Source: an uncultured Acidobacteriota bacterium
GTDB taxonomy: Bacteria; Acidobacteriota; Thermoanaerobaculia; Gp7-AA8
Direction of reading: 5' to 3'
Assembly: GCA_963821585.1 (NCBI GenBank)
Contig: CAWGEI010000005.1
Span: 6,603 to 70,602 of the forward strand
DNA length: 64,000 nt
Positions 1,288 through 33,580 of this stretch are shown piece by piece (the first letter of the stretch is position 1; every line of letters begins with the position of its first letter). Both the position numbers and the translations under genes were made by a program. A model generated the notes under the pieces. That model saw nothing but the letters and a program-made list of their open reading frames with translations, was not told where the DNA came from and ran no database searches.

Positions 1288-1742
1288 AAGACCCCGATAA
1301 GCACCTCGACAGGCACCTCGACGTACTGGACCTGCCCGAAGACCTGCGCGACCTGATTCGCGAGTGCGCGGCGAAGGGCACACGCACGGTATTCGAGCGC
1401 AACCGCCGCCCGGTGGCGGCACTGGTCTCGTACGACGAGTACATGGCCCTGCGCGAGACGATCGAGATCGCGAACGACTCCCTGCTCTTCGCCAAGATCG
1501 CCGAAGCGGACGACGAGGAGGTCGAGCAGCGCGGGAAATACGAGCGGTTGCGCTTCGCGAAATCCGCCGCACCGATCTACGACGCCGCGCTGCGCCGCAT
1601 CGAGCTCGACCCCATCGTAGGCGCGCCGCTGTTCGAACCGCTGAAGGGACTGTGGAGTTACCGGACCGAGGAGCTGCGGATCATCTACAAGATCGTCGCG
1701 GAGGCGAAGATCGTGGTGATTCTGCACGTCACGAAAATGTAG
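1284..1742 (+). CDS. Single-polypeptide fusion of a Phd/YefM-like antitoxin and a RelE/ParE-like toxin
   Basis: GTG at 1284 overlaps the galU stop (GTGA). The N-terminal half, RTVFERNRRPVAALVSYDEYMALRETIEIANDS, is Phd/YefM-like. The C-terminal half, RLRFAKSAA...LKGLWSYRTEELRIIYKIVAEAKIVVILHV, is RelE/ParE-like. No stop codon separates the two halves. The TAG stop lies inside the family-1 repeat. Confidence 0.7.
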   Translation: MKDPDKHLDRHLDVLDLPEDLRDLIRECAAKGTRTVFERNRRPVAALVSYDEYMALRETIEIANDSLLFAKIAEADDEEVEQRGKYERLRFAKSAAPIYDAALRRIELDPIVGAPLFEPLKGLWSYRTEELRIIYKIVAEAKIVVILHVTKM

Positions 1743-1800
1743 GGCGTGGCTTCAGCCCGCCCCCCCACGGGAGAGGCGGGCTGAAGCCACGCCCTACGTT
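1737..1800. repeat. Family-1 inverted-doublet (REPIN-like) element, copy 1
   Basis: Arms GTAGGGCGTGGCTTCAGCCCGCC / GGCGGGCTGAAGCCACGCCCTACGTT around a 14-nt loop. Confidence 0.9.
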
Positions 1801-5213: not shown

Positions 5214-5294
5214 AACGCGTGTTTGGAGTGCGGATCAGCTACCATCGCGCGATCGTGCCCATCAGCGCAGAATGAAGTCCACCGCCCCCTGATC

Positions 5295-6938
5295 ATGTGG
5301 CCCCTTCGCATCGCCGCTGCGCGGCTTCGTCCCTTCAACGCCTCCACGTTCATCCGCACGGGGATCGTGCTGGTCGTCGTCGCGGCGTTCCTCGTCGGCG
5401 ACTACGCGCTGTTTGCGCGGCTCTTCGGCGCGATCGCGGGCGTCGAGTCGGAGACGCCGCTCTTTGCCCTCGGCCTGCTCCGCAACCTGCTCGGGCTGGT
5501 GTTTCTCGTCGCGACGGTGACGCTGTTGTCCTCCGCGATGGCGGCGGCGATCGCGTCGTACTTCACGGACCTCGATCTCGACATCTACCACGCCGGTCCG
5601 CGGTCGAAGCTGCGCATCGCCCTCTCACGGTGGCTGAAGACGCTGGTGCAGAGCGCGACGGTGGTGTTCCTATTTCTCGTGCCGCTGATCGTCGCCTTCG
5701 CGCGCCAGTACGACAAGCCGTTCGCGTTCTATCCCGCCGTGCTGGTGAACCTCGCGCTGCTGCTGACGATCCCGGTGACGCTGGCCTCGATCGTCATCCT
5801 GATGCTCGTGCGCTGGTTTCCGGTGCGACGGGTCTACCAGATCGTGGCGTCGATCGCCGTACTCGTGCTGACGCTGGTCGTGATCGCGTTCCGCATGAGC
5901 CGGCCGGAGCGCTTCTTCGCCGAGCTCTCGACGATTGACGTGGCCGAGGTGCTGCGGGCGATCGAGCTGCCTTCGATGAGCATCTATCCGAGCACGTCGC
6001 TCGCGGAACTGATGACGCGCAGCGATGCAGCGCCGTTCGCGCCGCGCATCGTGCTGATCGCGCTGATCGCGTTCATGGCATTCGCGGTGCTGGCGCGGGC
6101 GTGGTACTTCCGCGCGTTCGTGCGGGCGCGGGAGAGCATGGCGCCGGCGGCGATCGGGGCGTCGTCCGCGACGCGCATCCTGGACCGGCTCTTCGCGCGC
6201 GCGGACCCGCCGCTGCGGGCGATGATCGGCAAGGAAGTGCGCACGATCGGGCGCGACGTCGCGCAGTGGTCGCAGGTGTTCCTCATGGGCGCGCTGCTGT
6301 TCATCTATCTCTACAACATCCGCATGCTGCCGCTGGGCGGCGACGCGCGCGCGACGCTGGTGGCGTACGCGAACCTCGGCATGTCGGGCTTCGTGATCGC
6401 GGCGATCTGCCTGCGTTTCGCGTATCCGTCGGTGTCGGCGGAGGGGAAGGCGTTCTGGCTGATCCAGAGCGCGCCGATCTCGTACCGCGACTTCCTGCTG
6501 GTGAAGGTCGCGGTCTACGCGGCGCCGCTGACGCTGCTCTCGCTGCTGCTCACCGCGTTCGCGAATTTCATCCTCGGCGCGAACGCGGTGGTGTGGACGT
6601 TCACGCTGGCGGGCGCGCTGCTGCTGGCGGTGACGCTGGTGAGCCTGGGCGTGGGCCTCGGCGCGCTCTCGCCGGACTTCAACGCGGAGAATCCGCTGCA
6701 GGTGGGGCTGTCGCTGGGAGGATTCGGCTACATGGCCATTTCGCTCGCGTACGTCGCGGCGGTGATGGTGCTGATGGCCCGTCCGGTGATGAGCTACTTC
6801 CTGCGCGTGGTGGGCGTGGAGCAGGCCGCGATCTCGGCGACGATCCCGATCGTGATTGCGCTCACGTTGTCCGCGCTGCTATCGGTGATATCTCTGCTGG
6901 CAGCGGAACGCCGCCTCACCCGCTTCAAAAGCGATTAG
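5295..6938 (+). CDS. Polytopic membrane protein (10 or more predicted TM helices; ABC-2/'putative ABC exporter'-like)
   Basis: The ORF is open from 5223, but the upstream part reads through the repeat. The ATG at 5295 (MWPLRIAAARL...) is the more likely start. The sequence is hydrophobic throughout. Confidence 0.75.
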   Translation: MWPLRIAAARLRPFNASTFIRTGIVLVVVAAFLVGDYALFARLFGAIAGVESETPLFALGLLRNLLGLVFLVATVTLLSSAMAAAIASYFTDLDLDIYHAGPRSKLRIALSRWLKTLVQSATVVFLFLVPLIVAFARQYDKPFAFYPAVLVNLALLLTIPVTLASIVILMLVRWFPVRRVYQIVASIAVLVLTLVVIAFRMSRPERFFAELSTIDVAEVLRAIELPSMSIYPSTSLAELMTRSDAAPFAPRIVLIALIAFMAFAVLARAWYFRAFVRARESMAPAAIGASSATRILDRLFARADPPLRAMIGKEVRTIGRDVAQWSQVFLMGALLFIYLYNIRMLPLGGDARATLVAYANLGMSGFVIAAICLRFAYPSVSAEGKAFWLIQSAPISYRDFLLVKVAVYAAPLTLLSLLLTAFANFILGANAVVWTFTLAGALLLAVTLVSLGVGLGALSPDFNAENPLQVGLSLGGFGYMAISLAYVAAVMVLMARPVMSYFLRVVGVEQAAISATIPIVIALTLSALLSVISLLAAERRLTRFKSD

Positions 6939-6976
6939 AATCGAACCGCCTGAAGACAATCCGGCAAGGAGAAGAA

Positions 6977-7408
6977 ATGACCGCTATTCCTCCGCCCACG
7001 GTCCCCCCTGTGACTCCTCCGCCACCGGGAGGCGGGTCGTACACTCCGCCGCCCCCACCGCCACCGGGCGGAGTCAGCCCCAGCTCCGACCGGACGCTGA
7101 TGATCGTGCTCTCATACCTCGGCCTGCTCGCTCTGATTCCGTATCTGACGAAGAAGGAAGACGCCGAGATCCACTGGCACGCGAAGAACGGCGTGGGCCT
7201 GCTAATCCTCGATGTGGTGGTCGGGGTCGCCCTGTTCGTCCTCGGCATGATCATCAATCAGGTAGGCATTCCCTGTGGCTCGTTGGCCGTGAGCTGCATC
7301 GTCTGGATCGGCATCCTCGTCCTGCACGTTTACTGCATCACCCAGGCGGTCGGCGGAAAGCGTCCGCGGATCCCGGTCGTGACCGACTTCGCCGAGAAAT
7401 CGCTCTAA
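6977..7408 (+). CDS. Pro-rich N-terminus plus DUF4870-like 3-TM membrane protein
   Basis: ATG at 6977 is preceded by AAGGAGAAG. Sequence: MTAIPPPTVPPVTPPPPGGGSYTPPPPPPPGG...LMIVLSYLGLLALIPYLTKKEDAEIHWHAKNGVGLLIL. It is embedded in the longer spurious ORF 6101..7408. Confidence 0.8.
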   Translation: MTAIPPPTVPPVTPPPPGGGSYTPPPPPPPGGVSPSSDRTLMIVLSYLGLLALIPYLTKKEDAEIHWHAKNGVGLLILDVVVGVALFVLGMIINQVGIPCGSLAVSCIVWIGILVLHVYCITQAVGGKRPRIPVVTDFAEKSL

Positions 7409-7418
7409 GGTAGATCGG

Positions 7419-7739
7419 ATGTCCGACTCCACGCCACCGTCCCCACCACCCGCCCCCGCCGGTCCCGGCGGGGGTGGTCTCGTCTATCCGGCCAATCCGC
7501 CGAAAGACCCGGTTCTGATTCTCATCCTGAACCTAGTCTTCGGAATCGGGTACATCATGATGGGCCAGAAGACGAAAGGGATCGTCGCCATCGGTGCTTT
7601 CTGGGTGGTGACGTTCGCAACGTGCGGCCCGGGGAGCATCATCGCCGCGTTGTATGCGATCGACGGCTACCTGCAAGCGCAGCAGCTCCAGCAGGGACAC
7701 CCGGTCGGCGAGTGGACGTTCTTCAACGACCATCGGTAG
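7419..7739 (+). CDS. Pro-rich N-terminus plus TM2-like small membrane protein
   Basis: 106 aa: MSDSTPPSPPPAPAGPGGGG...LILNLVFGIGYIMMGQKTKGIVAIGAFW...YAIDGYLQAQ. Confidence 0.75.
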   Translation: MSDSTPPSPPPAPAGPGGGGLVYPANPPKDPVLILILNLVFGIGYIMMGQKTKGIVAIGAFWVVTFATCGPGSIIAALYAIDGYLQAQQLQQGHPVGEWTFFNDHR

Positions 7740-7743
7740 TCTT

Positions 7744-7836
7744 TGGAGTGCGGCGACGACTAGTCGCCGCTTTTCAATCTTTGCACGCTGAGCGCTCGAA
7801 GATAGGAAAGCGGCGACTCGCCGTCGCCGCACTCCA
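7744..7836. repeat. Long hairpin between convergent genes (30-nt arms, about 33-nt spacer)
   Basis: TGGAGTGCGGCGACGACTAGTCGCCGCTTT pairs with AAAGCGGCGACTCGCCGTCGCCGCACTCCA (3 mismatches). Each arm is itself self-complementary (GCGGCGAC/GTCGCCGC). Confidence 0.85.
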
Positions 7837-7838
7837 TA

Positions 7839-8204
7839 TCAGAACGGGTACAGCGGCGTGTTCCGCACGATCCAGTAGCTGGTCAGGACGAAGAACGCCG
7901 CCCACGCGAACCAGGGTTGCATGAGGAAGCGGGGCTGGCGACCTCGGAACAGGCTGGGGAGCGCGCACAGGGTCACGGCCAGCAGCAGGAAGAGCATCGG
8001 ATTGAGGCGGAAGGCCTCTTCGACGCGGCCGTGCAGCAGATGATGGAGCGCGCGCGTGGTGCCGCAGCCGGGGCATTCCAAGCCCGTCATCAGCCGGAAG
8101 GGGCATTGGGGGTAGAAGGCGTACGCCGTCGGCGGGAAGGTGAAGAGCACCCACCCACCGACGGCAGCCACGGCCGCGCTAACCGCGATTCGCCTGAGCT
8201 GCAC
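7839..8204 (-). CDS. DUF2752 family membrane protein
   Basis: 121 aa. CPFRLMTGLECPGCGTTRALHHLLHGRVEEAFRLNP is the DUF2752 signature. The gene overlaps the upstream gene by 26 nt. Confidence 0.85.
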   Translation of the reverse strand: MQLRRIAVSAAVAAVGGWVLFTFPPTAYAFYPQCPFRLMTGLECPGCGTTRALHHLLHGRVEEAFRLNPMLFLLLAVTLCALPSLFRGRQPRFLMQPWFAWAAFFVLTSYWIVRNTPLYPF

Positions 8205-8595
8205 TGATTGCCTGCATCATGTTGGCGCCGAAGACGATTCCCCAGATGATCGTGGCGACCAAGCCAACGCCAACGCCGATGAGCAGGAACATCTTCGCCT
8301 TCTGCGACGCTTCCTGCGCGCCGGCGATGTCGCCCTGCGCGAGCTTGGAATTGACCTGCGCGGAGAAGATGATCGCCACGATGCCGAGCGGGAGGCAGCA
8401 GCAGAGCGTGACCACGATCGACTGCCACAGGTAGTTCGGGATGGTCGCGGCGCCGACCGGCGGCGGCGCACCGAAGTTCGACGGCGGCGGGGGAGGCGTA
8501 TACGACGACGGAGCCCCGGCGCTCAGGGAGCGTCCGCAGTTCACGCAGACCGAGGCGTTATCGAGGTTGGACGTACCGCAATTCGGACAGTTCAA
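8179..8595 (-). CDS. Zinc-ribbon + Pro-rich linker + CD225/dispanin-family membrane protein
   Basis: CPNCGTSNLDNASVCVNCG, then PNYLWQSIVVTLCCCLPLGIVAIIFSAQVNSKLAQGDIAGAQEASQKAK. The likely start is TTG at 8595, 6 nt after AAGGAGG. The ORF track extends it to 8694. Confidence 0.85.
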   Translation of the reverse strand: MNCPNCGTSNLDNASVCVNCGRSLSAGAPSSYTPPPPPSNFGAPPPVGAATIPNYLWQSIVVTLCCCLPLGIVAIIFSAQVNSKLAQGDIAGAQEASQKAKMFLLIGVGVGLVATIIWGIVFGANMMQAISAAQANRG

Positions 8596-8606
8596 ACCAT
8601 TCCTCC

Positions 8607-8942
8607 TTATTTCGACGTGGCGATCGAGTATCCGATGAACGCCGCGTACGCGAGACCGATCAGAGCACCGGCACCGAAGGCGATCCAGCACCACATCTTT
8701 GCCTTCTCGGACGCTTCCTGGGCGCCCCCGACGTCACCGGCGTGCAGCTTCGAGTTTACCTGCGCGGCATAGATGATCGCCACGACTCCGAGGGGCATGC
8801 AGCAGCAGAACGCCGTCAGCACTGCCTGCACGAGGTAGTTGTTGATCTGCGGCAGAGGCGGAAAGCGGCGGATGCGCTCGTTGCAGTTCGTGCAGACGGT
8901 GGCGTTGTCGGCGCGGGCCACGCCGCAGCTCGTGCAGAACAT
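8607..8942 (-). CDS. Zinc-ribbon + CD225/dispanin-family membrane protein (paralog)
   Basis: 111 aa: MFCTSCGVARADNATVCTNCN...NNYLVQAVLTAFCCCMPLGVVAIIYAAQVNSKLHAGDVGGAQEASEKAK. Confidence 0.88.
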   Translation of the reverse strand: MFCTSCGVARADNATVCTNCNERIRRFPPLPQINNYLVQAVLTAFCCCMPLGVVAIIYAAQVNSKLHAGDVGGAQEASEKAKMWCWIAFGAGALIGLAYAAFIGYSIATSK

Positions 8943-9529
8943 TACTGTTGCACTCCTTCCGGATACTGCACGAAGGTCCCCGTCGAGAAGACGATGTCGT
9001 TGTCGAAGTCGGTCGTCTTCGTAAACGGCGTGTACTCCTGCAGCGAGTCGTGCTCGAACGTCTTGTCCGCGCCGGCGCTGCCGATCGCATAGGTCTCACA
9101 TGCGCCCGCCGGCCAGCACTCGTAGCGGAACTGTGTCTCCCAGCCGTCGAGCGTGGGGACGGACTTGACGTATTTCGGCACGAGCGCCGAGGAGAGGTCG
9201 CTCACCGACGAGACTTCGGGGTAGTGGTTCTGATCGGTCGAGTAGGCTTCCACCGCCGTCGCGATCGTTCGCATGTCCGCCATCGAACGCTTCTGCTTCG
9301 ACCGGTTGAGCGCCGTCAGGAAGTTCGGGATGGCGATGGCGGCCAGGATGCCAAGGACCGCGACGAGCACCAGTCCTCCGACGATGACGCCGATGATGAT
9401 GCCCGCGCTCTTCGAGCCCTCGCCGCGGGCCACGCGCTGCGAGCCGTTGCTGGGATTGCCGCAACGCGGACACGCCGCGTAGGAAACGTCGGTGACCTGA
9501 TTGCCGCACCAGGCGCAAAACGCCATCAC
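8942..9529 (-). CDS. Zinc-ribbon + TM + type II secretion GspG-like pseudopilin ectodomain; no prepilin cleavage motif
   Basis: 195 aa. CAWCGNQV...CPRCG, then a TM helix ending AAIAIPNFLTALNRSKQKRSMADMRTIATAVEAYSTD...LDGWETQFRY...YAIGSAGADKTFEHD. A G/FTLIE class-III signal is absent. Confidence 0.85.
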   Translation of the reverse strand: MMAFCAWCGNQVTDVSYAACPRCGNPSNGSQRVARGEGSKSAGIIIGVIVGGLVLVAVLGILAAIAIPNFLTALNRSKQKRSMADMRTIATAVEAYSTDQNHYPEVSSVSDLSSALVPKYVKSVPTLDGWETQFRYECWPAGACETYAIGSAGADKTFEHDSLQEYTPFTKTTDFDNDIVFSTGTFVQYPEGVQQ

Positions 9530-9565: not shown

Positions 9566-9648
9566 AACGTAGGGCGTGGCTTCAGCCCGCCTCTCTGGTC
9601 GAAACCCCCGCCCACGAGGGGAGGCGGGCTGAAGCCGCGCCCTACGTT
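9566..9648. repeat. Family-1 inverted-doublet (REPIN-like) element, copy 2
   Basis: AACGTAGGGCGTGGCTTCAGCCCGCC ... GGCGGGCTGAAGCCGCGCCCTACGTT with a 31-nt loop. Confidence 0.9.
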
Positions 9649-19706: not shown

Positions 19707-20947
19707 GCCGCCCAGCCGTCGTCCTCCTGCTCTGCTGCACGCTCCTCGCGTGCCGCGAGGACGCGCCTCCTCCCGCCGCCGCCAAAGCACCCGCGCCGCC
19801 CGCGCGCATCGCGGCGACGCCGGACAATGACTCCGACAACTCGTTGAATCTCATGTACGGCGCCGCGGTCGTCTCCCGCACCGGCGAGCTGCACCTCGAA
19901 AACTCTGCCGTCCACACGATCGACGGGTTCGCCGAGACCATCTGGATGTCCGCGCCCGGCGTGCCGGAAGAGATGCTGGTCTATTCGATGCTCGCGCCCA
20001 CGCGCCTGCAGCGCGTCGGCATCAGCACCCACAGCGGCGACGACGCGGTGGACAGCGTCGCCTTCGCCGCGTCGATGGACGGGAAGACGTGGACGGATCT
20101 CGGCACGCTGAAAGCCACGCGCACGGACGAGCGGCAGTTCCTGGACGTGAAGCCGACCGTCGCGCACTACCTCCGCGTCCGCACGATCGATCCCGCGGGG
20201 CGCTACTACGTCCGCCTGCGCGGTGTCCACGCGATCGGCGAGGAGGTAGCGGCGCCGAAGACACCGTCGTTCAGCGGCTGCTGGATGATCAACGGGGAGC
20301 GCGCGCACCTGGAGCAGCACGGTGCGCGCATCACGGGCGTGATCGAGAGCGATCCGCCGGCGTACATCGACGGCGGCACGGACAACCGCGCGGGGATGAT
20401 CATGTGGATGCGCGGTCTGACGTGGGGCTACGCGGTGATCACGCGCTCGCCTAACGGAGAGCATCTCTCGGGGTTGAGCTTCTTCGAGGAAGTAGACAAG
20501 AACATCGGCGAGGGGTGGTTCGGGGAGAGATGTAACGTAGGGCGTGGCTTCAGCCCGCCCTCCCCGGGGGCGGGCGGGCTGAAGCCACGCCCTACGTTGT
20601 TCTTCGCTCGCGCGAAGCGGTATTCGCTGTACGGGCTGGTCTTCGATGCGAACGACCGGCTCGTCGAGGAAGTGAGCGAACCGACGCTCGATGTCCTGGC
20701 CTCGCTGATCGCCTCTGCGTCGCAGCCGATGCGGCTCGTCGCGCGCGAGCTGCGCTACACCCCCGAGCAGAACCGGCAGCACGCGGCGGCGCGGCTGCAG
20801 GCGATCCGCGCCGCACTCGAACGGCGCGGGGTGAACCTCTCCCGGATCGAGTTCGTCAACGCGGGCGGCGACACCGGCGGAATCGTCCTCCGCTCTTCCC
20901 TTCAGCGAGCGCTCCTCAGCCGCGTCGACCTCGTTTCTGGGACATAA
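19703..20947 (+). CDS. Lipoprotein with a discoidin (F5/8 type C)-like domain and a degenerate OmpA-like C-terminal domain; carries an in-frame family-1 repeat
   Basis: GTG at 19703 overlaps the glyS stop. Lipobox LLAC is present. ...[38 protein letters not shown] is discoidin-like. The frame stays open through the repeat ([23 protein letters not shown]). Confidence 0.75.
20534..20598. repeat. Family-1 inverted-doublet (REPIN-like) element, copy 3, located inside the CDS
   Basis: AACGTAGGGCGTGGCTTCAGCCCGCC ctccccgggggcg GGCGGGCTGAAGCCACGCCCTACGTT. Confidence 0.9.
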
Positions 20948-24884: not shown

Positions 24885-24945
24885 AACGTAGGGCGTGGCT
24901 TCAGCCCACCTTTTTGGACGGCACGCTGTAGCCACGCCCTACATT
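24885..24945. repeat. Family-1 element, copy 4 (degenerate right arm)
   Basis: AACGTAGGGCGTGGCTTCAGCCCACC ... GCTGTAGCCACGCCCTACATT. The inner part of the right arm is missing. Confidence 0.7.
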
Positions 24946-32683: not shown

Positions 32684-33523
32684 TTGAAGGAACCAACCAA
32701 AATCCGCATCGGCCCGGCGGGCTGGAGCTACAAAGATTGGGAAGGCGTCGTCTACCCGTCGCACGGTTCGAAGTTCGACGCACTCGGCTATCTCGCGCAG
32801 TTTTTCGACACCATCGAGATCAACTCGCCGTTCTATCGCATCCCTCCGCCGACACACTCGAAGAGCTGGGTGAAGCGCGTCGCCGTGAACGACAATTTCA
32901 AGTTCACGACGAAGATCTATCGCGGCTTCACGCACGAGACCGAGGCGCTGTCGAAGGATGACGTGCAGGCGTTCCGCAACTACCTCGACCCTCTCATGGA
33001 AGCCGACCGCCTCGGCGCGATCCTCATCCAGTTCCCGTGGAGCTTCAAGAACACGCCCGAGTCCCGCGCGAAGCTCGTCAAGCTCTTCGGCGCCTTCAAG
33101 GACTACCCGCAGTCCCTCGAAGTACGGCACTCGACGTTCCAGGTGCCGGAGCTCTACGAGCTCCTGGACGAGCACGACGTCGCCTGGGTGAACGTCGACC
33201 AGCCGCTGTTCAGCGACTCCGTGAAGCCGGCGGACACGGTGACCGGTCCCGTCGCGTACGCGCGCTTCCACGGACGCAACTACGAGAAGTGGTTCGCGCA
33301 CGACGAATCGTGGGAGCGCTACAACTATCTCTACTCCGAGCGGGAGCTCGCGCCGTGGGTCGAGCGCATCGAGCGGATGGCGAAGAAGCGCGACACGTAC
33401 GTGATCACCAACAACCACTTCCGCGGCCAGGCCATCCTGAACGCGGGCGACCTCAAGGAGTCGCTGGGCCAGGACGCAACGCTGCCTCCGCAGTTGAAGG
33501 AGGCCTACCCCGACCGGACGTAG
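32684..33523 (+). CDS. DUF72 (UPF0759/YecE-like) protein
   Basis: 279 aa. IRIGPAGWSYKDWEGVVYP...FDTIEINSPFYR is the DUF72 signature. The start is TTG. The stop TAG lies inside the family-1 repeat. Confidence 0.88.
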   Translation: MKEPTKIRIGPAGWSYKDWEGVVYPSHGSKFDALGYLAQFFDTIEINSPFYRIPPPTHSKSWVKRVAVNDNFKFTTKIYRGFTHETEALSKDDVQAFRNYLDPLMEADRLGAILIQFPWSFKNTPESRAKLVKLFGAFKDYPQSLEVRHSTFQVPELYELLDEHDVAWVNVDQPLFSDSVKPADTVTGPVAYARFHGRNYEKWFAHDESWERYNYLYSERELAPWVERIERMAKKRDTYVITNNHFRGQAILNAGDLKESLGQDATLPPQLKEAYPDRT

Positions 33524-33580
33524 GGCGTGGCTTTAGCCCGCCTCCCCCGGGGGAGGCGGGCTAAAGCCACGCCCTACGTT
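33518..33580. repeat. Family-1 inverted-doublet (REPIN-like) element, copy 5, with a compensatory arm substitution
   Basis: ACGTAGGGCGTGGCTTTAGCCCGCC tcccccggggga GGCGGGCTAAAGCCACGCCCTACGTT. Confidence 0.9.

What the first reader, a model, noticed from the sequence alone, without database searches (positions are those of the whole stretch)
6977..9529. Tightly coupled operon of zinc-ribbon/Pro-rich small membrane proteins (pseudopilin-like, 2 x CD225/dispanin, DUF2752) facing two more Pro-rich membrane proteins
Four genes on the minus strand are packed with overlaps or 11-nt gaps: 8942-9529, 8607-8942, 8179-8595 and 7839-8204. The first three each begin with a CxxC...CxxC zinc ribbon, followed by a TM segment. 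The ectodomains are a GspG-like pseudopilin fold in the first gene and a CD225/IFITM-like (dispanin) reentrant domain in the next two. The last gene is DUF2752, which carries its own CPxC...CPGCG motif. Converging on them are a DUF4870-like protein (6977-7408) and a TM2-like protein (7419-7739). Both have N-termini that are almost pure Pro/Gly tracts. None of these families has an established bacterial function. The combination of cytoplasmic Zn-ribbons, a membrane-inserted dispanin and an uncleaved pilin-like ectodomain looks like one membrane-associated module rather than a chance cluster. This is my best candidate in the window for an undescribed system.
Basis: partly seen in the sequence, partly recalled or inferred. 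Interest (0 to 1): 0.8.

Follow-up and report, generated by a model that had tools for sequence, protein, structure and literature searches.

The report
Bacterial dispanin–DUF2752 small membrane-protein operon
A tightly packed operon of small membrane proteins is real, and its core, a bacterial relative of the human antiviral IFITM proteins followed by an uncharacterised three-helix protein (DUF2752), recurs as a gene pair in at least eight bacterial phyla, giving a concrete handle on what bacterial IFITM-like proteins do.

Summary
Four minus-strand genes overlap or lie 11 nt apart:
- A: Zn-ribbon, TM helix and pseudopilin fold.
- B and C: Zn-ribbon plus CD225/dispanin.
- D: DUF2752.

Facing them are E (DUF4870/HOTT, borderline score) and F (TM2-like, below the Pfam cut-off).

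The core is the CD225→DUF2752 pair. In 85 DUF2752-anchored loci, a CD225 gene is the immediate upstream same-strand neighbour in 64. The loci span Acidobacteriota, Cyanobacteria, Verrucomicrobiota, Planctomycetota, Chloroflexota and Bacillota, and four Actinomycetota records were examined in addition. Elsewhere the upstream neighbour is a TM2 or DUF4190 hairpin protein.

Gene A is a Thermoanaerobaculia-specific add-on. It derives from a canonical prepilin that lost the cleavage and assembly residues (G-1, F1, E5 became I, G, G) and gained a cytoplasmic Zn-ribbon.

An S-Y-T-P-P-P-P-P motif occurs only in the N-terminal tails of the C, E and F families. This ties the convergent genes together.

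DUF2752 has no solved structural analogue. It carries an invariant CPGCG..RA..HG / RN cluster, predicted to face the periplasm.

Function remains unknown. I propose a hetero-oligomeric inner-membrane assembly with DUF2752 as a thiol- or metal-dependent partner of CC-motif hairpin proteins. No searchable paper mentions DUF2752.

The parts
8942..9529 (-). Gene A. N-terminal cytoplasmic CxxC...CxxC Zn-ribbon, one uncleaved TM helix (the distal half of a pilin alpha-1 helix) and a periplasmic pseudopilin-fold domain that ends in YPEGVQ. The database gene call starts at 9526.
   Evidence: - Pfam T2SSG scores 30.9 bits against a cut-off of 21. TIGR01710 scores 46.9, below its cut-off of 88.85.
- The AF2 model has pLDDT 88.9. 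The best PDB matches are the pseudopilins EpsG, GspG and PulG (E 8e-4, TM-score 0.63 normalised to the target).
- G-1, F1 and E5 are replaced by I46, G47 and G51. G51 is at least 90% conserved.
8607..8942 (-). Gene B. Zn-ribbon, a short 13-aa linker and a CD225/dispanin domain with an FCCC motif. Its start overlaps the stop of A (TAATG).
   Evidence: - Pfam CD225 scores 86.8 bits.
- The junction was read.
- A short-linker copy always follows an A-type gene.
8179..8595 (-). Gene C. Zn-ribbon, a Pro-rich linker carrying S-Y-T-P-P-P-P-P, and a CD225/dispanin domain with an LCCC motif. It has a TTG start, with a GGAGG Shine-Dalgarno sequence at 8602-8606.
   Evidence: - Pfam CD225 scores 91.6 bits and Zn_Ribbon_1 30.5 bits.
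- The start was read.
7839..8204 (-). Gene D. DUF2752, a three-TM protein. It has an invariant C44-P-G-C47-G, R51, H58, A64 and R114-N115 cluster, predicted to lie on the periplasmic face. It overlaps gene C by 26 nt.
   Evidence: - Pfam DUF2752 scores 71.9 bits.
- The AF2 model has pLDDT 92.9, with helices at 2-22, 70-86 and 97-114.
- Invariant residues were counted across 86 sequences from several phyla.
- Positive-inside counts come from 239 homologues.
- There is no PDB match by fold or by sequence.
7810..7830 (-). Terminator-like hairpin that ends the A-D operon.
   Evidence: stem of 8 pairs (7 of them G-C) followed by a T-run.
7750..7770 (+). Terminator-like hairpin that ends the E-F unit. 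Its stem is nearly identical to the hairpin on the opposite strand.
6977..7408 (+). Gene E. Pro/Gly-rich N-tail with GGGSYTPPPPPPP, followed by a DUF4870/HOTT (MamF/Tic20-like) membrane domain.
   Evidence: - Pfam scores 25.4 bits against a cut-off of 25.
- Homologues were precomputed as PF09685.
7419..7739 (+). Gene F. Pro/Gly-rich N-tail followed by a divergent TM2-like two-helix domain.
   Evidence: - Pfam TM2 scores 14.9 bits against a cut-off of 27.9.
- Profile-profile comparison with genuine TM2 neighbours of DUF2752 gives probability 60%, E 8.6e-5.
- 19 of 35 orthologues carry Y[TS]PPP.
5223..6938 (+). ABC_tran_2 (PF16949) polytopic membrane protein. It is the upstream operon partner of E and F (context, not core).
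   Evidence: - Pfam scores 244 bits.
- E and F follow it in all 33 loci that carry it, apart from two loci where the contig ends before them.
9567..9647 (.). REP-like palindromic repeat inserted between sufT and gene A (context).
   Evidence: - Five or more copies occur in the window, against 0.05 expected by chance.
- The hairpin folds at -72 kcal/mol, z -6.7.
- Relatives that lack it have sufT-A gaps of about 20-70 nt.

Best explanation
**Shown**
- A-B-C-D is one translationally coupled operon.
- Its evolutionary core is the gene pair CD225/dispanin → DUF2752, which is conserved across phyla.
- DUF2752 almost always sits directly downstream of a small hairpin membrane protein. The order of frequency is CD225, then TM2, then DUF4190.
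- That hairpin protein has a disordered Pro/Gly/Tyr-rich cytoplasmic N-tail. The tail is often capped by a Zn-ribbon (Acidobacteriota, Chloroflexota, Bacillota) or a GYF_2 domain (Verrucomicrobiota).
- In Thermoanaerobaculia the pair has recruited a membrane-tethered pseudopilin domain that cannot be cleaved or polymerised (A). A always comes with a short-linker CD225 copy (B).

**Inferred**
- The products form a hetero-oligomeric complex in the inner membrane.
- The dispanin hairpins sit in the membrane with their conserved CC(C) tip in mid-bilayer, as proposed for IFITM3.
- DUF2752 is their dedicated partner. It contributes a CPGC/His/Arg/Asn site at the periplasmic membrane face. This site acts either as a redox-active or metal-binding maturation or stabilisation centre, or as an obligate structural subunit.
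- The Zn-ribbons and SYTPPPPP tails are cytoplasmic docking elements. They link B, C, E and F to a common soluble partner.
- The pilin-fold ectodomain of A gives the complex a periplasmic interaction surface.
- The likely output is organisation or remodelling of the cytoplasmic membrane or envelope, which is dispanin-like behaviour. Secretion and enzymatic catalysis in metabolism are less likely outputs.
For: **Operon anatomy**
- The junctions are a 1-nt overlap, an 11-nt gap with a Shine-Dalgarno sequence, and a 26-nt overlap.
- Each unit has its own terminator-like hairpin.

**Pair conservation**
- CD225 is the immediate upstream neighbour in 64 of 85 DUF2752 loci and is present in 72 of 85.
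- All 6 cyanobacterial loci, both Chloroflexota loci and the single Bacillota locus have it, with otherwise unrelated flanks.
- Independent gene calls with precomputed Pfam hits confirm it in Synechocystis PCC 7339 and in two further genomes.
- RefSeq annotates TM2→DUF2752→TM2 in Streptomyces.
- Nonomuraea has DUF4190→CD225→DUF2752.
- GYF_2 fusions are confirmed by Pfam.

**The trio**
- The trio occurs without the suf, E, F and ABC flanks in 11 loci and in at least three contexts.

**Gene A**
- The fold matches pseudopilins.
- Its nearest relatives are canonical prepilins of the form 'KGFTLIELL...YPEGVQQQ', at 46-48% identity.
- The same ectodomain is fused to other cytoplasmic modules.

**DUF2752**
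- The model is confident.
- The motif is invariant across phyla.
- The Cys loop is predicted to face outward.

**Partner proteins**
- A CC motif is present in 87 of 88 partner CD225 domains.
- The SYTPPPPP motif occurs 70 times, all in the C, E and F families, and 0 times in 5046 other ORFs.
Against: - No physical interaction, topology or phenotype has been tested. Complex formation is inferred only from gene order.
- If the CC tip lies in the cytoplasmic leaflet and the DUF2752 Cys loop is periplasmic, direct thiol chemistry between them is geometrically doubtful.
- C34 is Ser in cyanobacteria, so a fixed four-ligand Cys site is not universal.
- Some DUF2752 genes stand alone: a Rhodococcus plasmid, Nocardia and L162.
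- The reverse conditional, how many CD225 genes lack a DUF2752 neighbour, was not measured.
- E and F belong to a different transcription unit, and the trio exists without them.
- In the window itself F lacks the exact motif.
Confidence: 0.4

Rival explanations
1. IFITM-like barrier function. The dispanins, with DUF2752, stiffen or reorganise the inner membrane to block phage genome entry or another membrane-fusion or penetration event. This would be a bacterial counterpart of IFITM antiviral restriction.
For: - B and C share the IFITM signature CC...GD..GA..AS.AK (PMC3282796).
- Mycobacterial dispanins restrict influenza virus when expressed in human cells (PMC4488726).
Against: - No PADLOC hit for any of the proteins.
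- No PHROG hit for B, D, E or F. A hits a pilin PHROG and an unknown-function PHROG, and C has only a weak hit at E 0.006.
- No DUF2752 in 2.9 million viral contigs.
- The locus sits in stable housekeeping synteny (suf, ddl, MlaD) rather than in a variable defence island.
Confidence: 0.15
2. DUF2752 is an enzyme that modifies the mid-membrane CC(C) motif of its neighbour, for example by S-acylation or another thiol modification. This would be a bacterial analogue of the zDHHC-IFITM enzyme-substrate relationship.
For: - The CC motif is kept in 87 of 88 DUF2752-linked CD225 domains. It also occurs in 4 of 10 DUF4190-like neighbours and in the DUF5518-like neighbour sequences.
- DUF2752 has an invariant Cys/His/Arg/Asn cluster that looks like an active site.
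- PMC3282796 notes that the bacterial CC motif is unexplained, because S-palmitoylation is not known in bacteria.
Against: - The Cys loop is predicted to be periplasmic, whereas acyl donors and the IFITM CC motif are cytoplasmic.
- There is no similarity to DHHC or to any solved enzyme.
- TM2 partners have only a single Cys.
Confidence: 0.12
3. The operon is an accessory of a type II secretion or type IV pilus machine. A would be a minor pilin, pseudopilin or anchor, and B-D would be assembly factors.
For: - A has the T2SSG domain and the pseudopilin fold.
- Its closest relatives are canonical prepilins.
Against: - A lacks G-1, F1 and E5 and carries a cytoplasmic Zn-ribbon, so it cannot be cleaved or extracted into a filament.
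- No other pilin-like ORF was found in the 64-kb window, and no pilus or secretion gene appears among the annotated neighbours.
- The CD225-DUF2752 pair occurs in most phyla without any pilin gene.
Confidence: 0.1
4. The cluster is a Cys- or metal-related appendix of the SUF Fe-S assembly operon, for example delivering or sensing metal at the membrane.
For: - A follows sufT in 31 loci, with a median gap of 67 nt, and in 16 of them the gap is 80 nt or less.
- All four proteins are Cys-rich.
Against: - The trio occurs away from suf in 11 loci.
- The pair has no suf linkage in other phyla.
- In this window a REP hairpin separates sufT from A.
Confidence: 0.08
5. Chance clustering of unrelated small membrane-protein genes, preserved only by local synteny.
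For: Within Thermoanaerobaculia the whole region from suf to MlaD is syntenic, so conservation there is weak evidence taken alone.
Against: - The pair is conserved across phyla with unrelated flanks.
- The trio occurs in several contexts.
- The overlapping junctions are conserved.
- The tail motif is shared exclusively by three families.
Confidence: 0.03

Closest known systems
IFITM / dispanin (CD225, PF04505) proteins of animals; bacterial dispanins noted by Sällman Almén et al. 2012 (PMC3282796) and Melvin et al. 2015 (PMC4488726)
   Same: - Two hydrophobic segments.
- A CC motif in the first segment.
- A loop with the G-D and A-x6-A motifs.
- A Pro-rich cytoplasmic N-terminus with a Tyr-containing proline motif, comparable to IFITM3 PPNY and the PRRT2 Pro-rich domain (the comparison rests on my own knowledge).
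   Different: - An N-terminal Zn-ribbon instead of eukaryotic sorting signals.
- Encoded in an operon with DUF2752, a partner family with no eukaryotic counterpart that I know of.
- The native bacterial function is unstudied.
- S-palmitoylation is not known in bacteria.
Type II secretion major pseudopilin GspG/EpsG/PulG (PF08334, TIGR01710)
   Same: - The fold of the ectodomain (Foldseek E 8e-4).
- The distal alpha-1 helix sequence GILAAIAIPN.
- Nearest relatives are genuine prepilins.
   Different: - No class III signal peptide: G-1, F1 and E5 are I, G and G.
- An N-terminal cytoplasmic Zn-ribbon.
- No secretion genes nearby.
- It scores below the equivalog cut-off.
- It cannot be processed or polymerised in the canonical way.
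HOTT/DUF4870-MamF-Tic20 superfamily (PMC11628618)
   Same: Gene E matches PF09685, and its homologues are precomputed as MamF_MmsF.
   Different: - The score is borderline.
- It carries a Pro-rich SYTPPPPP N-tail.
- There is no magnetosome context.
- The paper calls the HOTT family completely uncharacterised outside magnetotactic bacteria.
TM2 domain proteins (PF05154; human TM2D1-3)
   Same: - Gene F has the two-helix TM2-like core.
- Genuine TM2 proteins are direct neighbours of DUF2752 in Pyrinomonadales, Verrucomicrobiota, Chloroflexota and Streptomyces.
   Different: - F is below the Pfam cut-off.
- It lies convergent to the DUF2752 operon, not inside it.

Membership tests
CD225/dispanin (PF04505) | Profile HMM score above the curated cut-off | tested here: met
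   B scores 86.8 bits and C scores 91.6 bits against a cut-off of 27.1.
CD225/dispanin (PF04505) | CC motif in the first hydrophobic segment, and G-D / A-x6-A motifs in the loop (PMC3282796) | tested here: met
   The consensus of 88 DUF2752-linked domains is cCClP.Givai..aaQVN.KlaaGD.aGA..as..Ak. CC is present in 87 of 88.
CD225/dispanin (PF04505) | IFITM-type activity (S-palmitoylation, restriction of membrane fusion) | not testable with these tools
   This needs biochemistry. In the literature it has been shown only for mycobacterial homologues expressed in human cells (PMC4488726).
DUF2752 (PF10825) | Profile HMM score above the cut-off, and the CPGCG motif | tested here: met
   The score is 71.9 bits against a cut-off of 27. 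C44-P-G-C47-G is invariant in 86 sequences from several phyla.
T2SS major pseudopilin GspG (TIGR01710 / PF08334) | Domain-level HMM match and pilin fold | tested here: met
   PF08334 scores 30.9 bits against a cut-off of 21. The best Foldseek matches are EpsG, GspG and PulG (E 8e-4 to 5e-2, TM-score about 0.6 normalised to the target).
T2SS major pseudopilin GspG (TIGR01710 / PF08334) | Equivalog-level score | tested here: not met
   TIGR01710 scores 46.9 bits against a cut-off of 88.85.
T2SS major pseudopilin GspG (TIGR01710 / PF08334) | Class III signal peptide: G-1 / F+1 cleavage site and E+5 | tested here: not met
   Aligned to canonical relatives (KGFTLIELL...), A has I46, G47 and G51. 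G51 is at least 90% conserved in the A family.
T2SS major pseudopilin GspG (TIGR01710 / PF08334) | Encoded with secretion or pilus machinery genes | tested here: not met
   The neighbours are suf genes, ABC_tran_2, ddl and MlaD. There is no other pilin-like ORF in the window.
DUF4870 / HOTT (PF09685) | Profile HMM score above the cut-off | tested here: inconclusive
   E scores 25.4 bits against a cut-off of 25. Orthologues are precomputed as PF09685, some of them marked weak.
TM2 (PF05154) | Profile HMM score above the cut-off | tested here: not met
   F scores 14.9 bits against a cut-off of 27.9. Profile-profile comparison with genuine TM2 proteins gives probability 60%, E 8.6e-5 after overlapping sequences were removed.
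Known anti-phage defence systems (PADLOC-DB) | Match to any defence-protein model | tested here: not met
   There were 0 hits for the seven proteins at E up to 0.1.

The most novel reading that the evidence does not exclude
DUF2752 is the missing functional partner of bacterial dispanins. It would be a previously unrecognised small membrane enzyme or chaperone that acts on the conserved mid-membrane CC motif through thiol modification, lipidation or metal insertion. CD225, DUF4190 and TM2 hairpins together with DUF2752 would then form a pan-bacterial membrane-organising system, from which animal IFITM/PRRT proteins were drawn. Zn-ribbon, GYF and poly-Pro tails would provide multivalent cytoplasmic scaffolding.
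Probability: 0.15. Interest if true: 0.85.

Novelty: new variant of a known kind. Interest (0 to 1): 0.6.

Why it matters
Bacterial dispanins have been catalogued since 2012 as the probable source of animal IFITM and PRRT genes. Their native role is unstudied, and so is the reason they keep the CC motif that is palmitoylated in animals (PMC3282796, PMC4488726).

A partner gene conserved across phyla gives an immediate experimental handle. The pair occurs in culturable cyanobacteria (Synechocystis PCC 7339, Nostoc, Calothrix) and in Streptomyces. Pairwise deletion, co-purification and cysteine chemistry are therefore feasible in cultured organisms.

The locus also shows two further things:
- A type IV pilin fold can be converted into a permanently membrane-tethered ectodomain, and that ectodomain is reused in several architectures.
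- A poly-proline short linear motif is shared by three unrelated membrane-protein families.

Tried and rejected
- **Defence or phage link.** PADLOC gave no hits. PHROGs gave nothing for B, D, E and F. A scan of viral contigs with the DUF2752 profile found no confirmed relative.
- **Structural analogue of DUF2752.** Foldseek against the PDB gave a best E of 8.3. A profile search of PDB sequences gave nothing at E up to 10.
- **Homology of CD225 and DUF4190.** hhalign gave only 23% probability over 16 columns. I treat the two as analogous, not shown to be homologous.
- **F as TM2.** A first hhalign run gave 98%, but this was inflated by 5 F-like sequences in the TM2 set. After they were removed the probability fell to 60%.
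- **Metagenome scan anchored on A.** The generic pilin-helix pattern swamped the results, and only two new A-type loci came out. The scan did reveal the canonical prepilin relatives.
- **All-vs-all clustering of neighbour ORFs.** Spurious GC-rich ORFs made it too noisy, so I inspected loci individually instead.
- **Rfam.** Only sub-threshold microRNA-family hits fell on the palindromes, and these are artefacts of hairpin shape.
- **Literature.** No paper holds 'DUF2752', PF10825 or IPR021215. A 'CD225 + operon' hit was a C. difficile locus tag.
- **Resemblance to the prepilin peptidase N-domain.** I noted a resemblance between the DUF2752 'TM1 then CPxCG' layout and the N-terminal domain of prepilin peptidases. 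This comes from memory only. I could not test it and do not rely on it.

Full report
**1. Is it there?**

All six ORFs exist at the stated coordinates. Reading the minus strand gives these junctions:
- The stop of A and the start of B share TAATG, a 1-nt overlap.
- B is followed 1 nt later by GGAGG, and 6 nt after that by the TTG start of C at 8595. The longer GTG-initiated ORF from 8694 would overlap B by 88 nt.
- D starts at a GTG 26 nt before the stop of C.

The database gene calls agree on lengths: A 194 aa from the ATG at 9526, B 111 aa, D 121 aa, E 143 aa and F 106 aa. The two convergent units each end in a terminator-like hairpin, at 7750-7770 (+) and 7830-7810 (-).

Pfam supports most of the family calls:

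| Gene | Family | Bits | Cut-off |
|---|---|---|---|
| A | T2SSG | 30.9 | 21 |
| B | CD225 | 86.8 | 27.1 |
| C | CD225 | 91.6 | 27.1 |
| D | DUF2752 | 71.9 | 27 |
| E | DUF4870 | 25.4 | 25 (barely met) |
| F | TM2 | 14.9 | 27.9 (not met) |

The flanks are housekeeping genes. On one side lie sufT (TIGR03406, 234 bits) and the rest of the suf operon. On the other lie ABC_tran_2, ddl and an MlaD protein. The source is a Thermoanaerobaculia (Acidobacteriota) genome.

**2. Is the neighbourhood conserved?**

Homologues of A at 59-64% identity show the same order: suf | A | CD225 (one or two copies) | DUF2752 | <F | <E | <ABC_tran_2 | <ddl. That is whole-region synteny, so taken alone it is weak evidence.

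I therefore anchored a scan of GTDB species representatives on DUF2752. I called ORFs myself and labelled them with iterated HMMs built from the domains in the window.

Of 85 loci (5 from the look-ups of A homologues, plus 80 from the scan), 72 carry a CD225 domain. In 64 it is the immediate upstream same-strand neighbour of DUF2752. By group:
- 46 of 48 Thermoanaerobaculia-like loci
- all 6 cyanobacterial loci (Nostoc, Calothrix, Aulosira)
- both Chloroflexota loci
- the single Bacillota MAG
- 2 of 3 Planctomycetota loci
- 3 of 5 other Acidobacteriota loci

In these other phyla nothing else in the flanks is shared.

Independent gene calls with precomputed Pfam hits give the same picture:
- Synechocystis sp. 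PCC 7339 has the pair with a 53-nt gap.
- Two further genomes have Zn-ribbon-CD225→DUF2752.
- In a fourth locus the gene caller missed a clear Zn-ribbon-CD225 ORF directly upstream.

**3. What replaces CD225 when it is not adjacent?**

- *Pyrinomonadales.* The order is [4-TM 'CCC' protein with a Pro-rich C-tail] [CD225] [Zn-ribbon-TM2] [DUF2752].
- *Verrucomicrobiota.* DUF2752 is embedded in arrays of GYF_2-DUF4190, GYF_2-TM2, GYF_2-CD225 and GYF_2-other membrane proteins. All of these were confirmed by Pfam.
- *Streptomyces cadmiisoli.* RefSeq annotates TM2 → DUF2752 → TM2, with an 8-nt overlap.
- *Nonomuraea.* The order is DUF4190 → CD225 → DUF2752. Both partners have (GYGQQPPSGG)n N-tails.
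- A few DUF2752 genes stand alone.

The general rule is that DUF2752 follows a small hairpin membrane protein. That protein has a disordered Pro/Gly/Tyr-rich cytoplasmic N-tail, with an optional Zn-ribbon or GYF_2 head.

**4. Gene A**

- A-type genes occur in 42 of the DUF2752-anchored loci. All of these are Thermoanaerobaculia-like.
- They lie immediately upstream of a CD225 gene in all but one locus. In L073 the A-type gene abuts DUF2752 directly.
- The trio also occurs without suf, E, F or ABC_tran_2 in 11 loci, in at least three different contexts. It is therefore a unit in its own right.
- The AF2 model (pLDDT 88.9) has a 63-residue helix plus a beta-sheet. Its best PDB matches are the T2SS major pseudopilins EpsG, GspG, PulG and XcpT.
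- The closest relatives without a Zn-ribbon (46-48% identity over residues 53-195) are textbook prepilins of the form M..K(G/Q/R)GFTLIELLIVVAIIGILAAIAIPNLL...YPEGVQQQ.
- Aligned to them, A has I46, G47 and G51 in place of G-1, F+1 and E+5. G51 is at least 90% conserved in the family.
- The four ribbon cysteines are invariant.
- A therefore descends from a pilin but can no longer be cleaved or polymerised.
- An exhaustive search shows the same ectodomain behind other N-terminal modules: Zn-ribbon plus 4 TM, a MinD/ParA-like ATPase plus TM, and tandem copies.
- A is always followed by a CD225 copy with a 13-aa linker (B type). The long-linker copy (C type) sits next to DUF2752. The two clearest loci that lack A (L009, L012) keep only the C type.

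**5. DUF2752**

- The AF2 model is confident (pLDDT 92.9). It has three TM helices (2-22, 70-86, 97-114). A 47-residue loop between TM1 and TM2 contains three short helices.
- Across 86 sequences from several phyla, C44, P45, G46, C47, G48, R51, A64, R114 and N115 are invariant. H58 is 99% conserved, H54 93% and C34 92% (Ser in cyanobacteria).
- In 239 database-called homologues, the N-terminus (mean 14 aa) carries 2.6 K+R. The TM2-TM3 loop (11 aa) also carries 2.6. The 47-aa Cys loop carries 3.1 K+R against 1.95 acidic residues.
- By the positive-inside rule, the CPGC loop and the RN pair lie on the periplasmic face. This is an inference.
- Neither Foldseek (best E 8.3) nor a profile search of PDB sequences finds any analogue.

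**6. Are E and F linked?**

E and F follow ABC_tran_2 in all 33 loci that carry it, apart from two loci where the contig ends before them. Transcriptionally, then, they belong to that unit. Two observations nevertheless connect them to A-D.

- *A shared tail motif.* The string Y[TS]PPP, usually S-Y-T-P-P-P-P-P, occurs 70 times in the ORF set of the first 85 loci. All 70 lie in the N-tails of E-type (29), C-type CD225 (22) and F-type (19) proteins. There are none in 5046 other ORFs, many of which are spurious Pro-rich reading frames of GC-rich DNA. In the window, C and E carry the motif, and F has a degenerate version (LVYPANPP).
- *TM2 neighbours elsewhere.* Genuine TM2 proteins are direct neighbours of DUF2752 in four other lineages. 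The F family aligns to them at 60% hhalign probability.

E belongs to the HOTT/DUF4870 family. This family was recently tied to MamF and Tic20 but is otherwise uncharacterised (PMC11628618).

**7. Mechanism**

*Shown:*
- operon anatomy
- the pair conserved across phyla
- the lineage-specific trio
- the loss of pilin processing residues
- the invariant DUF2752 motif
- the CC motif in 87 of 88 partner CD225 domains
- the shared tail motif

*Inferred:*
- The proteins assemble in the inner membrane.
- The dispanin hairpins insert with the CC tip in mid-bilayer.
- DUF2752 is a dedicated redox, metal or structural partner.
- The Zn-ribbons and poly-Pro tails dock a common cytoplasmic factor. Eukaryotic GYF domains bind proline-rich sequences (my own knowledge), and GYF_2 is fused to the same membrane domains in Verrucomicrobiota.
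- A adds a periplasmic interaction surface.

I put about 0.4 on this assembly model.

*Rivals:*
- An IFITM-like anti-phage barrier, about 0.15. There is no defence or phage signal, and the synteny is stable and housekeeping.
- DUF2752 as a CC-modifying enzyme, about 0.12. The predicted topology argues against it.
- A T2SS or pilus accessory, about 0.1.
- A SUF or metal appendix, about 0.08. sufT-A gaps are short in half of the suf-linked loci, but the linkage is confined to one lineage.
- Pure chance, about 0.03.

**8. Novelty**

Every component family is catalogued, and bacterial dispanins were reported in 2012. In the searchable corpus, however:
- No paper mentions DUF2752, PF10825 or IPR021215.
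- The two papers on bacterial dispanins do not discuss gene context, and state that the bacterial function is unstudied.
- No paper was found that describes the pair.

I therefore rate this as a new variant of known kinds: dispanins with an obligate-looking partner, and a pilin turned into a tethered ectodomain. It has a modest chance of proving to be something categorically new.

Noticed in passing
window 1742-1794, 9572-9642, 20540-20592, 24891-24910, 33523-33574: A REP-like palindromic repeat with arm GGGCG(C/T)GGCTTCAGCCCGCC gives 9 arm matches, against 0.05 expected by chance. The copy between sufT and gene A folds at -72 kcal/mol (z -6.7). It lengthens an intergenic gap that is about 20-70 nt in relatives.
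   Followed up: partly
window 7750-7770 (+) and 7810-7830 (-): The two terminator-like hairpins of the convergent units have almost identical stems, GCGGCGAC...GTCGCCGC. Rfam reports them only as sub-threshold miRNA-like hairpins, which is an artefact.
   Followed up: partly
window 8490-8510 (C) and 7035-7060 (E); loci L001-L062: An S-Y-T-P-P-P-P-P short linear motif is shared exclusively by the N-tails of three unrelated membrane-protein families: C-type CD225, DUF4870-like E and TM2-like F. All 70 occurrences are in these families, and none is in 5046 other ORFs.
   Followed up: yes
P0275, P0326, P0259, P0290, P0248, P0249; L088:27-863: The YPEGVQ-type pilin-like ectodomain also occurs behind a MinD/ParA-like ATPase plus TM, behind a Zn-ribbon plus 4-TM domain, and in tandem arrays. 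This suggests wider reuse of an uncleaved pilin fold as a periplasmic module in Acidobacteriota.
   Followed up: partly
L004/L005 3741-5903 (-): A 720-aa gene with no Pfam hit is inserted between sufT and the A-type gene in one lineage. It leaves the A-CD225-CD225-DUF2752 block intact.
   Followed up: no
L169 (Nonomuraea gerenzanensis) 1503-2842: The DUF4190 and CD225 proteins upstream of DUF2752 both carry long (GGYGQQPPSGG)n low-complexity N-terminal repeats. This is an actinobacterial version of the Pro/Gly/Tyr-rich tails.
   Followed up: no
L160 108-707; L161 1-257; L164 1-843: AhpC/TSA-redoxin-thioredoxin-family genes lie within 2-3 kb of the CD225-DUF2752 pair in three loci, two of which are syntenic with each other. 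This may be coincidence, or a weak hint of a redox context.
   Followed up: no
window 5223-7739 (+): ABC_tran_2 (PF16949), the DUF4870-like gene and the TM2-like gene form a conserved three-gene unit in all 33 loci that carry ABC_tran_2. Its function is unknown.
   Followed up: partly
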